A stretch of DNA of 64,000 nt from Octopus vulgaris (taxonomy: Eukaryota), in NCBI GenBank assembly GCA_951406725.2, contig OX597820.1, positions 53,506,001 to 53,570,000 on the forward strand, written 5' to 3'. Of the stretch, positions 15,755-54,276 are shown piece after piece (within the stretch, counting starts at the first letter, position 1; every line of letters starts with the position of its first letter). Position numbers and translations under genes: made by a program. The notes beneath the pieces were generated by a model, which made no database searches, was not told the DNA's origin, and saw nothing but the letters and a program-made list of their open reading frames with translations.

Positions 15755-17271
15755 CATATACATACATATACATATATACATACATATACACGTATATGTA
15801 ATATATGATGAGCGTGTTTCTGTCATACAACTGACGCCATATGCCCTTGATATGCAATAAACGATATATGCTACACTCATTAAGGGCGTCTTCCGTCCAT
15901 AAGTGGTCATTATCTTGACACTGACCCCACAAGTCTACCCTGATTACATCTATCAATCTTTGGAAAAAGATTTTATACACGTCTTTTTGTGATGTTTTAG
16001 GAGAATGACTCGTTTTACAGCGGGTACGTTGCATTAGGTTTTTTTTATATCTGTCGGATGAGACAGATAAACTGTTCCCAGACGCAAGCTTTCTTAATAT
16101 TCAAACGCAGTGAAACTCTTTTCGGTCTTTTTGAACCGTTCCTTTGGTAACGAAAATCTGACCAAGGGAAATAAACAAATATTATTGTTAGTAATGCGAT
16201 AAAATTAAACAACAAATATCCTATGCTTGGCACTCTAATAGGAACACAGGAATAAACAAGGAGAGAAAACAGAAAAAATGTATAGTGGCTAGCAATCTAT
16301 CATAGCGAATGCCGGACAGAGGGGTCACACTCGAGAGCCAGGAAGAAGGGGAGATAATAAAGTGCATACATATATATATATATATATATATGCATACGTA
16401 TATACGTATTGATAATGAGACATTTCTAATAAACATGTGTGTGTGTGTGTGTGTGTGTAACTGTGTGTTTGTGTGCGTTTATTAGAAAAATATTATCAAA
16501 ATCCTAAAAAGAAAGATAAAGTATAACAGTAATACTGATCATTTGTCAAGTGATACCTATTTTAATTCCCCCGAGTGATCCAGACACTTGACATTATGAA
16601 CAACAGGATCATACTGCAACTATCTGAAATCTTTAATCTATGCCAGTCAACGCAAGAACTGGGTGGAGGACATAATAAATGAAGTTAGAAGGTGGTTGGA
16701 AGCTGTGGTAAAGAGATGAAACAGAGGGATAGAGAGACAAGAAGACGGGGTGAACATTAATCAGCTCAACTAACCTCAGCTAATCTGGGTTGGTAACTAG
16801 TTTATATTAATGCCTAAGACTTTTAAATCCCTGGCTGAAAGCGCGTATGCGTTTGTGTGTGTGCCTGTGAATACTTTCATCTTGTAAATTCATGAGGGAG
16901 TTACTTAGCCACAGGAGTATTGTGTTTCCCTTCACAAGCTGAAATTTAAAAAATTCAGAGTAAAGTATATCCCCAATAAAATTATCAGCAACAAATAAAA
17001 TCGTTTGTGTGATGTGTGTGCGTGTGTATGTATGTACGTGTGATTGTATTATGTAAATAAATTATTCTATTATTCATTTTAATATGTGTATAAAAATTTG
17101 TATTATCCATTTTATTACGTATATGAAATTTGTATTACCTATTCTGTGCAGTATTTCTTTATTTAGTTTATTATTAAATTTCCTTTTAACATCAAAGTAA
17201 ATATTGTAAATATATCAACTTGTATGATCAAACCTAGTGACATTATTTTTTTCTTTTTCTATATTTTGCAG

Positions 17272-17896
17272 AAGTTTAATGCCAAGATCTGAAGAAGGTC
17301 AACTCACCATCGAGAAAACACCGAGTTATTTTATAACGAAAGATGTTCCTAGAAGAGTGTACCAGTTCTCCAAACATCTCAAGTTGATTGTGGTAGTGAG
17401 GGACCCCGTTACTCGGGCTATATCTGACTACACACAGGTGGCGAGCAAGAAGATGGATTCGCGTAGCTTCGAGGAAATGGTGTTTGTTGATAACACCACC
17501 CGTATTGTCGACACCCAGTGGAGTCCTGTCCGTATAGGAGTCTATGCTAAACACCTGAAACATTGGCTTCAGTATTTCCCACTGGAACAAATGCATTTCG
17601 TGAGTGGTGAACGTCTTATTGAAAACCCTGCTGATGAGATGTTGAAAGTGCAACAGTTTTTGGGGCTCAGACCTGTTATAAACCACAAACATTTTTACCT
17701 GAAATCCAGGAAAGGATTTCCTTGTATCCTCAAACCTAACAGACAAAAAGGTAGCCACCCTCACTGCTTAGGTGAAACTAAAGGGCGTATTCACCCCATG
17801 ATTGATCCTTCGGTGATACGGAGGCTTAGGGATTTTTATAAGCCCTTCAATATAAAGTTTTATCGCATGGTTAATCAAGATTTTGGATGGGTATGA
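17272..17896 (+). CDS. HS3ST3: Terminal coding exon of a heparan sulfate glucosamine 3-O-sulfotransferase (HS3ST2/3/4/6-like, Hs3st-B type); the 5' exon lies outside the window
   Basis: Translation contains LTIEKTPSYF, KLIVVVRDPVTRAISDYTQ (3'-phosphate-binding motif), VSGERLI, KGFPC...HCLGETKGRIHP and a C-terminal DFGWV*. A polypyrimidine tract and TTTGCAG acceptor end at 17271, splitting an Arg codon (phase 2) just before SLMPR, the usual intron position in this subfamily. The N-terminal 5'-PSB motif (GVKKGGT-like) is absent from the ORF track. The symbol denotes the subfamily, not one-to-one orthology. Confidence 0.93.
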
Positions 17897-28582: not shown

Positions 28583-29353
28583 AAGCTGGCAGAATCGTTA
28601 GCACGTCGGGTGAAATGCTTAGCGGTACATCGTCTGCCGCTATGTTCTGAGTTCAAATTCCGCCGAGGTCGACTTTGCCTTTCATCCTTTCGGGGTCGAT
28701 TAAATAAGAACCAGTTACGCACTGGGGTCGATATAATCGACTTAATCCCTTTGTCTGTCCTTGTTCGTCCTCTCTGTGTTTAGCCCCTTGTGGGTAGTAA
28801 AGAAATAGGTATATCGTCTGCCGTTACGTTCTGAGTTCAAATTCCACCGAGGTCGACTTTGCCCATCATCCTTTCGGGGTCGATAATTTAAGTAACAGTT
28901 ACGCACTGGGGTCGATGCAAACGACTTAATCCGTTTGTATGTCCTCTCTGTGTTTAGCCCCTTGTGAGTAGTAAAGAAATAGAAATAGGTATTTCGTCTG
29001 CCGGTACGCTCTGAGTTCAAAAACCGCCGAGGTCGACTTTGCCTTTCATTCTTTCGGGGTCGATTAAATAAGTAACAGTTACGCACTGGGGTCGATATAA
29101 TCGACTTAATCCGTCTGTCTATCCTTGTTTGTCTCTTCAGTGTTTAACTCCTTGTGGGTAGTAAAGAAATAGGTATTTCGTCTGCCGTTACGTTTTGAGT
29201 TCAAATTCCGCCGAGGTCGACTTTGCCCTTCATCCTTTCAGGATCGATTAAAGTACCAGTTACGTACTGAGGTCGAGGTAATCGACTTAATCCTTTTGTC
29301 TGGTCTTGTTTGTCCTCTATATGTTTAGCTCCCTGTGGGCAATGAAGAAATAA
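28583..29353 (+). mobile_element. SINE family A tetramer (period 180-184 bp)
   Basis: Units start at 28624, 28808, 28988 and 29172; only the first carries the 5' head. Confidence 0.9.
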
Positions 29354-29590
29354 ATACATTGAGACTTATCATAAAATACATAAATATCTAAAGAAATAAA
29401 GAAGTAAACATAAATATAGAAATCCATCCAGCCACTGTTGAGAAGACGCTACCAATCATCCCATATCACCAAGCACCTACCGGGGGCGATATAGCGTGGC
29501 TACTGCGGTCTAGTGCATTTGCTATCATAGATGAAATGAGAAACATTTCACATTCTCTATGTAGGCTACTTTCTAGTCATGAAACCTAAT

Positions 29591-29921
29591 ATTGCAGCGT
29601 GGAAGGTGTTTATAAGCCATTTAAGAAACACACAAAAACCGTTAGATTCACTTCAACATTTAAATTTAATTTGTCAAAATATTTTCGTCGCTTTGAGACC
29701 AAGACCTGTTCACTGACAAAACTTCGTGCTGCATCTCAGTGAACAGGTCGCGGTCTCAAAGCGACGAAAATATTTTGACAAATTAAATTTAAATGTTGAA
29801 GTGAATCTAGCGGTTTTGTGTGTTTCTTAAATGGCTTATAAACACCTTCCACGCTGCAATTGTTTTCATTCCAGCACACGATCTCAGATCAAGTCACTCG
29901 CTATGCAAGTACATCTCCGTA
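29591..29921 (+). mobile_element. Palindromic Penelope-like insertion with 13-bp TSD and G3-C8 hammerhead variant
   Basis: Arms 29591-29716 and 29736-29860 are near-perfect inverted repeats; AAACCTAATATTG occurs at 29582-29594 and 29922-29934. Confidence 0.8.
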
Positions 29922-30956
29922 AAACCTAATATTGTTATCAATAATAGTCAATCACATGAGGGAATTTAATTTTTAATCTTGTTTCTTCTTCTTCAATTAG
30001 CACATCAGTCTCTGTTTCTCCTAACATGCCATTCGTTATAATTATCAGGATCTCACAGGTTCTTAGCACAAACATAAACCACATACTCTCCAGTGGTAGT
30101 AGTAAAATATTACTTTTCGTGTGTCTTACGCTTTTCATTTGGTATAATTTGTTTTCGTTTTTTTTTATGTTTTCGTCCTCATTCTACGCTCCACAAGTGA
30201 CTATCGCTCCTCCTCACTGCCCAGTTTCGTTCATCACAAGACCATGGAGTGATGACTACTGGGAGAAGCCACAAGGCGTTTTCTACTGCGTACTATGTGA
30301 CTTTACTGCCCTTTTGTGGGCAGCTGCTGTTTACTGATGTTATTGTCGCCAGTGCTTTCCGCCACAGTTTAATTTTCTTCTCTAGCTGCAGCTCCCCTGG
30401 ATATAAATTGTTCACTCTATTAAATGGAAATAAACTCACTTGGTACTATAAACACTTATTCGAAGGAGTATTGTCAATCAAACAGAAAAACTCACAAACG
30501 AAACAAAATATGAGACATACACAAGGATCACAAGATGGCGTGTTTCAGTCATTACTGGAAGTGAAAGTATGCAATAAATAAATGATTAAAACTACTGAAA
30601 AATAAATTCAATAATAATAGTAATATTTCATATCGACACAAGCAATTTTCCATTATTATTCGCCATAAAAATTGTTTTTATTGGCCACAAGAGCCCAGGA
30701 TGTTGAGGACATTCCAAAAGCGAAAAGTGAAAGTAACAATAAAAAATATACTGAGAAACATACATCAACCAGAAGGGCCAAAGCAGCAATAACAATTTAA
30801 TAAAATATTATCAAATGGAAACAATATCCATAGACGTCACTCGGAATCGAGTATGAGTTGGTAATGTGTAACATGGTTGCGCTAATTGCTCTCGGTTTTT
30901 ATGCAACAGCAAGTACGCATACGGACCTCTCATCATTTACCCCAAAAATATTGAAC

Positions 30957-52660: not shown

Positions 52661-53710
52661 TCCTTAAATCCTTAAAAAAATTTTAGCCCGAAGGCACCAC
52701 CGCTGAGTAAGCTACACTAATATGTGAATCCACCTCTGATACGTGGCACTTGATCAACAAGGGAGTTCGATGCTGCTGCCCGCATCTGCGTCTCCTGTCG
52801 TGAGGTAGGTTCATCTAGAACTCCCGACAAGAAGAGATCCAGTTTAGGTTTAAAGAAACCCACATCCACACCATGTAAGTCTCTTAAGCATTTAGGGAGG
52901 ATGTTAAAGAGCCGCCCCGTTCTACGGTTGGGGTAACTTTGAATGCCAAAGTTTGGGACAAGACCCTCCAGGATTTTCCAGATGTATATCACCGCATATC
53001 TCTCCCGCCTCCGCTCTAGGGAGAAGAGGTTTAATACTTTCAGTCTTTCCCAGTAGTTGATATTTTGCATTGAGACGATATTCTTTGTGTAGCTTCTCTG
53101 AATTGCTTTGAGTTCTGCTGTTAGTTTTATATTGTGTGGTGACCATAGTTGGGAGCAGTAGTCCAAGCGGCTGAGGACGAATGTTTTCCAGAGGACCATC
53201 AGTGTCTCCTTCTCTCTTGTTCTGAAAGTTCGGAGAATCCATCCAGCTAGCCGTCTGCATTTTATCACCAGATTAGTAATATGCACTTGGAAAGATGCAT
53301 CATTGCTCATGTCAATGCCTAGGTCACGCACTGATTTTGACTCAGGGATTGCAATTCTTCTTGGGCCAGTGTATCCAGTCTGCACGTCGTTTACCTTTGT
53401 GTGCCGGTAGCGCAGGGCCTGGAACTTACCTGCATTAAACTGAATGTTGTTGTTCTCCGCCCACCTGTATATTTTATCCAACTCCTGTTGCAGATGCGCA
53501 ATATTTTCAGGGTTTTGTATTGTGTGGGAGATTTTTGTGTCATCTGCATAGCTAGCAAGGGTGGCCATCGTAGCAACTGAAGGCATGTCTGAAAGGGCCA
53601 CTATGAACAGCAGTGGCCCCAAGACAGTGCCCTGTGGAACACCGCTTGTTATTTGTGTTTCCTTGGAGGTGGCTCCATTGCTCACAACTGCCTGTCTTCT
53701 GTCTTTTAGG
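52661..53710 (-). mobile_element. 5'-truncated CR1/L2-group LINE with reverse transcriptase fragment
   Basis: About 330 uninterrupted codons: [47 protein letters not shown]; short 3' UTR ending in (TTTAAGGA)2; embedded in TA/CATA repeats. Confidence 0.92.
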
Positions 53711-53886
53711 ACATACATACATATATATATATATATATACATACACATATATATATATACATACATATATATATATATATACATACATATATATATATAT
53801 ACACATACATACATATATATATACATACATACATATATATATATACATACATACATATATATATACATATATATACATATATTTGT

Positions 53887-53945
<59 letters not shown>

Positions 53946-54276
53946 TGTGAGTGCGTTTGTATGACTATATATATATATATATATATATACATACACACAC
54001 ACATATATATATGACAGTGTATGTATGTATGTAAGTTTGTGTGTATGTATATCGGGGTACCCCTCTGTTTACACACCACTCATTTTACACAATCGTACTT
54101 TAGTATGACTTTGGTTTTGTTCGAATTATTTTCATTTTTCATTATTATTTGCCGTCTTCAGGAACACTACTGCATTGTTTCCGTTTTATATTTTCCTTCT
54201 CTTTTCGTTTTACGTATATGTATGTTTGTATATACATACATGTATATATCTAAATATTTCTGTGTGTGGATGCATG

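What the first reader, a model, noticed from the sequence alone, without database searches (positions are those of the whole stretch)
29582..29934. TSD-flanked 270-bp palindrome containing a G3-C8 swapped hammerhead on both strands
Seen: ~125-nt near-perfect arms with a 19-nt spacer, a ~60-nt 3' extension, and a 13-bp direct repeat whose last 4 nt (ATTG) overlap the left arm. Combining the arms gives TTTGTCA-GTGAACA-G-GTCGC-GGTCTCAAA-GCGAC-GAAA-ATAT-TT-TGACAAA. That is a 7-bp stem I, 5-bp stem II, palindromic stem III and a core with C3>G and G8>C, a compensatory swap. The left arm (minus, 29670-29720) keeps stem I and the right arm (plus, 29736-29782) keeps stem II. Inference: a young insertion made by inverted second-strand priming, carrying a rare natural HHR variant. 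It could also form a cruciform or a long dsRNA/ADAR substrate.
Basis: partly seen in the sequence, partly recalled or inferred. Interest (0 to 1): 0.85.

Follow-up and report, generated by a model that had tools for sequence, protein, structure and literature searches.

The report
Palindromic Penelope stub with swapped hammerhead
This 330-base palindrome is one of thousands of short insertions of a Penelope-like retrotransposon, likely made when both cut DNA strands each copied the start of the element's RNA, and the family carries a hammerhead-ribozyme motif with a core base pair reversed (G3-C8), whose cleavage is untested.

Summary
The anatomy is real. The element belongs to a high-copy family (6,616 exact G3-C8 core arms genome-wide). 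I found its parent: a Penelope-like element (PLE) with 1.1-kb pseudo-LTRs and a roughly 1,065-codon RT + GIY-YIG frame that starts at the ATG inside the right arm (29835). The 62-nt extension is the PLE 'tail', the first codons of that frame. Arm ends cluster at two fixed sites (unit positions 145-154 and 209), also in long ORF-bearing inverted insertions and at homologous codons in a sister family. Inner ends pile up at a likely transcription start (TATA-like at -30, extra G), never at the predicted cleavage site. Best reading: both nicked target strands prime on the 5' end of uncut PLE RNA at two sites, and the two cDNAs join head to head. G3-C8 is the family norm, including full-length copies; the sister family has C3-G8. 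I found no natural G3-C8 hammerhead in the papers searched, but a key paper was unavailable. This copy is damaged on both arms and, as a hairpin, is predicted not to fold as a ribozyme. Inverted repeats, tails and hammerheads are known PLE features: a new variant of a known kind.

The parts
29582..29594 (+). Left copy of the target-site duplication; last 4 nt overlap the left arm (microhomology)
29591..29737 (-). Left, tail-less arm: unit positions 147 to 1 of the PLE 5' end, sense on the minus strand; reaches the inferred transcription start plus an extra G
29670..29720 (-). Minimal type I hammerhead motif, G3-C8 core, 7-bp stem I, stem II damaged by two substitutions
29736..29737 (.). Head-to-head junction of the arms, 2-nt overlap
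   Evidence: gap -2
29736..29922 (+). Right, tailed arm: unit positions 22 to 209
29736..29782 (+). Hammerhead motif: G3 29739, C8 29744, extra G after A9, stem II 29747-29751/29761-29765, GAAA 29766-29769, palindromic AATATT, predicted site after 29775; 5' strand of stem I cut to 3 nt by the junction
29835..29921 (+). First 29 codons of the parent PLE open reading frame
29861..29922 (+). PLE 'tail': the stretch between the two inferred priming sites
29922..29934 (+). Right copy of the target-site duplication; first nt overlaps the tail end

Best explanation
This is a short inverted insertion of a Penelope-like retrotransposon, likely made when the element's RT-endonuclease nicked both strands of an AT-rich target and each strand primed reverse transcription on the uncut 5' end of the element's RNA at one of two internal sites, after which the two cDNAs would be joined head to head. 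SHOWN: the unit is the end of the pLTR plus the first 29 codons of an RT + GIY-YIG frame; outer ends sit at two fixed positions; duplications vary; G3-C8 is the family state. INFERRED: the RNA starts at unit position 2 (TATA-like box at -30; extra G from copying the cap); cDNA 1 starts at the tail end (209) and cDNA 2 at 145-154, helped by 1-5 nt of target microhomology; both run off at or near the RNA 5' end, only 150-210 nt away; their ends join with small losses; gap filling makes the duplication. The hammerhead is likely a low-activity, dimer- or protein-dependent ribozyme of the parent pLTR in which the 3-8 pair was reversed; the inserted copies come from RNA it had not cut. This copy lacks the upstream TATA region, is damaged on both arms and is likely a dead end.
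For: Parent: L052 and L182 share sequence past the tail in an open frame; 34 candidates carry it; four share >=1.5 kb; L220-L222 show pLTR-ORF-pLTR+tail, pLTR 1,118 nt at 98% in L220. Protein: YVDD, GIY-YIG above Pfam cut-off (E 1.6e-5), BLAST to another PLE RT E 8e-9, 163 homologs, some named RT-domain proteins. Ends: 95 of 98 copies end at 200-209; 68 of 80 second arms end at 145-154, 2 at 208-209, 10 elsewhere. Long ORF-bearing inverted insertions L255 and L266 use the same pair of ends. A sister family (55% identity over 815 aa) has two ends about 56 nt apart at homologous codons. Inner ends <=30 in 149 of 178 arms (89 of 118 without the full-length-query set), none at 60-64. TATAWAW at -30 in 12 of 13 pLTR ends; G before the AG in 61 of the first 100 of 1,422 listed, A in 8, genomic TT in 25, other T in 6 (my tally). 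In 46 copies not selected for centre type the tail-less arm reaches further 5' in 19, the tailed arm in 14, equal in 13; L273 and L279 carry the extra G in both arms 1 nt apart. Duplications of 8-15 nt in 25 of 41 non-microsatellite copies; 45 of 104 flanks are (TA)n. PAc protein cleaves and extends both strands from two internal RNA sites that bound the tail, and does not need hammerhead cleavage (PMC11167929).
Against: No biochemistry or start-site mapping for this family. 804 exact copies keep the upstream sequence, so the 5' pile-up is not universal, and that sequence also reads as a branch point plus splice acceptor; TATA-like words are common in this TA-rich DNA. The D. virilis Penelope promoter is reported as internal and TATA-less (PMC2377424). 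PAc showed no strand difference in start site, whereas here one-tail copies dominate (67 of 98 tail + second site; 2 two-tailed). Arms share private variants (25 of 110 non-CpG substitutions; shuffles mean 1.65, max 7 of 5,000): two cDNAs explain this only if both use one source RNA or later arm conversion occurs; fold-back explains it directly. 18 of 98 copies are solo and 16 of 41 lack a clear duplication. No fully intact ORF of this family was seen. 400 arms have G3 without C8. Samples were best-scoring hits, not random.
Confidence: 0.68

Rival explanations
1. PLE insertion whose inverted arm comes from fold-back: one cDNA snaps back at its 3' end, primes DNA-templated synthesis, and the product is cut or joined near position 150.
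For: Explains shared private variants and subfamily concordance between arms (stem II loop 44 of 47, shuffle mean 29.5); a TGCA mini-palindrome at unit 5-8 lies in many junctions; some copies have very short left arms.
Against: Predicts that the tailed arm always reaches furthest 5'; seen in only 14 of 46, and the reverse holds in this copy. Copies with both arms complete and 1 nt between leave no loop. Tail-less 3' ends at 147-153 occur on sense ends of solo and long copies (L152, L154, L266, L267). Later centre deletions could blur the first test.
Confidence: 0.14
2. Same two-primer mechanism, but the 5' pile-up marks a splice junction or an RT stop in the 3' pLTR of a long transcript, not a capped start.
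For: CTAAC, a pyrimidine tract and AG precede the unit; PLEs have 5' introns; 209 exact CTGAG-preceded copies.
Against: The base before the extra G varies (T 33, A 25, G 3 of 61; C excluded by the pattern) and nothing further upstream is shared among 30 CTGAG loci; no matching GAG-GT donor in four pLTR regions checked.
Confidence: 0.12
3. A non-autonomous palindromic master (SINE- or retrozyme-like hairpin RNA) is copied whole.
For: Near-constant overall length among top hits; short copies far outnumber ORF copies.
Against: Centres differ from copy to copy; the same ends occur in kilobase ORF-bearing inversions; no tandem monomer array at this locus.
Confidence: 0.04
4. MITE or foldback DNA transposon.
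For: Long inverted repeats, high copy number.
Against: One-sided tail, duplications of 8-15 nt with no fixed target, variable left ends, identity with a pLTR and ORF start.
Confidence: 0.01
5. On the ribozyme alone (independent of the above): the G3-C8 motif is an inactive or nearly inactive relic.
For: Reversed pair gives only partial rescue in PAc; U at 17; stem I probability about 0.2 in a monomer; no inserted end at the cleavage site; minimal PLE hammerheads cleave weakly.
Against: A double change that keeps the pair; stems and core kept while the stem II loop differs between subfamilies; palindromic stem III; predicted dimer with both stems I and II.
Confidence: 0.35

Closest known systems
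Penelope-like elements with C-terminal GIY-YIG (Penelope/Poseidon, Neptune, Nematis, Hydra), as described in PMC8557442
   Same: pLTRs, inverted 5'-truncated copy, one-sided tail, variable duplication, (TA)n bias, hammerhead in the pLTR, RT + GIY-YIG with linker and CCHH-type cysteines.
   Different: Tail about 60 nt rather than 30-40; most copies reduced to a 330-nt palindrome; G3-C8 core. [quoted passage not shown]
PAc (Poseidon of Anolis carolinensis), PMC11167929
   Same: Two internal RT start sites within the ORF start bounding the tail; both strands extended; uncut RNA as template; C3G/G8C partly active as an engineered mutant.
   Different: There G3-C8 is engineered; the ORF starts inside the hammerhead (here 92 nt after G3); the part I read offers no account of inverted copies.
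Minimal PLE hammerheads (PMC4209133)
   Same: Type I, extra base between 9 and 10.1, G10.1-C11.1, palindromic 15-16 region, U3-A8 variants, opposite-strand pairs 100-700 bp apart already noted in Schistosoma.
   Different: G3-C8 not mentioned in the parts read; longer stem I, shorter stem II.
LINE-1 twin priming (recalled, not from a call)
   Same: Second target strand primes on the RNA, giving an inversion with microhomology.
   Different: Twin priming inverts the upstream part of the RNA; here both primers copy the same stretch from fixed sites.
Non-LTR retrozymes (10.64898/2026.07.22.740005)
   Same: Short PLE-derived, hammerhead-bearing repeats.
   Different: Retrozymes are head-to-tail tandem units; this is head-to-head, dispersed, with a tail and a found parent.

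Membership tests
Penelope-like element | RT with C-terminal GIY-YIG in one ORF | tested here: met
   GIY-YIG above cut-off; RT by YVDD, BLAST E 8e-9 and named homologs; Pfam RVT_1 did not match
Penelope-like element | Pseudo-LTRs from partial tandem copies | tested here: met
   L220: 1,118-nt direct repeats at 98%
Penelope-like element | Inverted 5'-truncated copy and one-sided tail | tested here: met
Penelope-like element | Variable duplication, AT/(TA)n targets | tested here: met
   25 of 41 and 45 of 104
Penelope-like element | RT groups with named PLE clades in a tree | not testable with these tools
Minimal type I hammerhead | Core with Watson-Crick 3-8 pair, GAAA, UH, stems I and II | tested here: met
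   family and full-length copies; not met by either arm of the window copy
Minimal type I hammerhead | Canonical C3-G8 | tested here: not met
   G3-C8 6,616 exact arms; C3-G8 8
Minimal type I hammerhead | Palindromic stem III allowing a dimer | tested here: met
   AATATT; cofold keeps stems I and II; prediction only
Minimal type I hammerhead | Self-cleavage after position 17 | not testable with these tools
   needs an assay; no inserted end at the site
MITE / TIR DNA transposon | Terminal inverted repeats at both ends, fixed-length duplication | tested here: not met
Non-LTR retrozyme | Head-to-tail tandem hammerhead monomers | tested here: not met
   rare tandem arrays exist (L202, L203)

The most novel reading that the evidence does not exclude
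PLE inverted repeats are the direct record of double target-primed reverse transcription: each target strand primes its own cDNA at a different fixed site in the first 30 codons of the ORF, and mis-engagement of these sites at the capped 5' end of the mRNA floods the genome with thousands of 330-nt palindromes; in this family they carry a working natural hammerhead with a reversed G3-C8 catalytic pair, not found in the papers searched, while a young sister family with intact ORFs offers a ready test system.
Probability: 0.4. Interest if true: 0.72.

Novelty: new variant of a known kind. Interest (0 to 1): 0.52.

Why it matters
How PLEs make their second strand and their inverted-repeat-plus-tail structure is stated as open in PMC8557442 and PMC11167929. 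Here thousands of natural insertions fix both priming sites and the template's 5' end to the base, which gives exact predictions for an in vitro test, and a sister family has intact, near-identical ORFs. A natural G3-C8 hammerhead would show that the 3-8 pair can be reversed in evolution; descriptors fixed on CUGANGA, and Rfam here, miss it. The family also seeds the genome with thousands of long hairpins that repeat pipelines could file as MITEs.

Tried and rejected
Rfam: no hammerhead. GIY-YIG search for the parent found several other PLE families (one with two ORFs and a U3-A8 hammerhead); none had this pLTR. L089 looked like a parent but is a copy inside another repeat; L137 is a tail-only copy near an SLX1-like exon. 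Fifteen long-frame hits of the tail peptide were mostly microsatellite read-through, though L182 among them gave the extension. Splice donor for a short first exon: not found. Sequencing runs: no RNA holder listed; four runs of guessed type from two organisms cover the unit deeply and list no change at positions 3 or 8, but say nothing on expression, start, cleavage or editing. Metagenome scan: two weak, uninformative hits. PDB sequence search: nothing. Earlier findings: none. L292 has arms with different subfamily loops but shared outer variants; one ambiguous case. No empty allele could be tested in a single assembly. No structure or complex prediction was run.

Full report
OBSERVATION. The hammerhead motif is as described, and chance is excluded: 1 of 20,000 shuffles of a natural unit met a relaxed descriptor, 0 of 20,000 the strict one. 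Neither arm of this copy is complete: the minus arm has two changes in stem II, the plus arm lost most of stem I at the junction. The whole element folds as one hairpin (-209 kcal/mol); in a comparable copy (L010) hammerhead stems I and II have probability 0.0 in the palindromic transcript, against about 0.2 and 0.94 in the sense arm alone.

FAMILY. The genome is 2.8 Gb; it is likely an octopus, since the best named protein relative is from Octopus vulgaris (54%). First-look candidates: 4,715 for the element, 12,277 for the tail peptide; these are not copy numbers. An exact 18-mer with G3-C8 occurs 6,616 times (control 0); 400 arms have G3 with another base at 8; 42 differ at both, 8 of them C3-G8. 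In 55 aligned copies G3 stands in 88 of 95 arms, C8 in 89 of 96, C3 in none. I number the sense unit on natural copy L057 (1-209).

ARCHITECTURE. Of 98 distinct copies from four searches (7 duplicate loci dropped), 67 have a tailed arm and an inverted arm ending at 145-155, 9 a tailed arm and a shorter arm, 2 tails on both arms, 2 other palindromes and 18 are solo. In the three sets not selected for the full palindrome the first class is 37 of 68, so arm length does vary. Inner ends lie at or below 30 in 149 of 178 arms and never at the predicted cleavage site. Direct repeats of 8-15 nt flank 25 of 41 non-microsatellite copies, and 20 of the 25 overlap the left arm by 1-5 nt; 45 of 104 palindromes sit in (TA)n. 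This excludes a TIR transposon.

PARENT. Two copies ran on past the tail with the same open-frame sequence. Only 34 places carry it; four continue for at least 1.5 kb. [quoted passage not shown] All copies I examined have stops, frameshifts or a truncated start; L255 has a 1,025-codon open stretch. About 21 of 140 scored protein hits belong to this family at 74% or more, against thousands of short copies. Full-length pLTRs carry the intact G3-C8 motif; the stem II loop differs between subfamilies while stems and core are kept. Long inverted insertions L255 (arms 1,778 nt, 96%) and L266 (1,471 nt, 99%) end at 147-150 on one side and 209 on the other. The palindrome is the short extreme of this architecture.

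SISTER FAMILY. A second PLE (1,312-codon frames open in 5 of 5 copies fetched; 55% identity over 815 aa) has a hammerhead motif with C3-G8 and A9 changed to C, 135 nt before its ATG, and two 3' ends about 56 nt apart at homologous codons. Its core occurs 3,553 times. In the first 30 loci, 3' ends cluster near 493-496 and 543-552, and 7 have 5' ends 28-38 nt after a TATA-like box, including three short palindromes; many others run further upstream. So the 3-8 pair is reversed between relatives, and the two-site pattern replicates, the 5' pile-up only in part.

MECHANISM. PAc protein nicks and extends both strands of AT-rich DNA from two internal RNA sites in the ORF start that bound the tail, and uses uncut RNA (PMC11167929; main text read). 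Applied here (inference): one strand primes at 209, the other near 150, both cDNAs run to the RNA 5' end and join. The 5' end is inferred to be a capped start: TATAWAW at -30 in 12 of 13 pLTR ends and a G not in the genomic context before the AG in 61 of the first 100 listed. Against fold-back: the tail-less arm reaches further 5' as often as the tailed one (19, 14, 13 equal of 46), and two copies have both arms complete, 1 nt apart. Against my reading: arms share private variants far above chance (25 of 110; shuffles mean 1.65), which needs one source RNA or later conversion; 804 copies keep the upstream sequence, which also looks like a splice acceptor and could itself supply short templates; one-tail copies dominate although PAc showed no strand bias.

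KNOWN AND NEW. Inverted copies, tails and (TA)n bias are described for PLEs (PMC8557442, passages). Minimal dimer-type hammerheads, U3-A8 and opposite-strand pairs are described (PMC4209133, parts 1-2 of 4; PMC3088659, passages and section 8; PMC6765202, passages). G3-C8 appears only as an engineered variant in what I saw (PMC3884650, passages). Searches gave no natural G3-C8 report, and 63 and 74 no account of these palindromes; passages of an octopus repeat annotation mention no hammerhead or palindrome (PMC13282606). Lunse et al. 2017 on small PLE hammerhead variants was not held and I read no supplements; either may list the variant or the family. The retrozyme preprint was read in part 1 of 5, PMC2377424 in passages.

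VERDICT. PLE origin about 0.97; two-primer, 5'-end mechanism about 0.68; ribozyme activity of G3-C8 about 0.6-0.65, untested. New variant of a known kind; interest 0.52.

Noticed in passing
window 17228-17896 +: Sulfotransferase exon (Pfam Sulfotransfer_1, E 2e-28); whether the element lies in this gene's unit is unknown.
   Followed up: partly
window 28624-29359: Four tandem copies of a roughly 181-nt repeat just upstream of the element.
   Followed up: no
window 52717-53964 -: Fragment of a LINE-type RT frame; label from my reading of the translation.
   Followed up: no
L256-L260: Young sister PLE with open 1,312-codon frames and a hammerhead motif with A9 changed to C.
   Followed up: partly
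L091-L094: Two-ORF PLE family with many open 781-codon RT-GIY-YIG frames; related loci show a U3-A8 hammerhead. One genome thus holds C3-G8, U3-A8 and G3-C8 cores.
   Followed up: partly
L203, L202: Tandem array of at least seven tail-less antisense arms separated by (TA)n, next to chimeric unit/ORF pieces.
   Followed up: no
L137 1340-1398: Tail-only 59-nt copy in (TA)n, 2.8 kb upstream of an SLX1-like GIY-YIG exon (gene label is mine).
   Followed up: no
L096-L124: Another abundant repeat (1,088 candidates) with a fixed end followed by (TA)n, unidentified.
   Followed up: no
L292: Palindrome whose arms carry different subfamily stem II loops but share private outer variants.
   Followed up: partly
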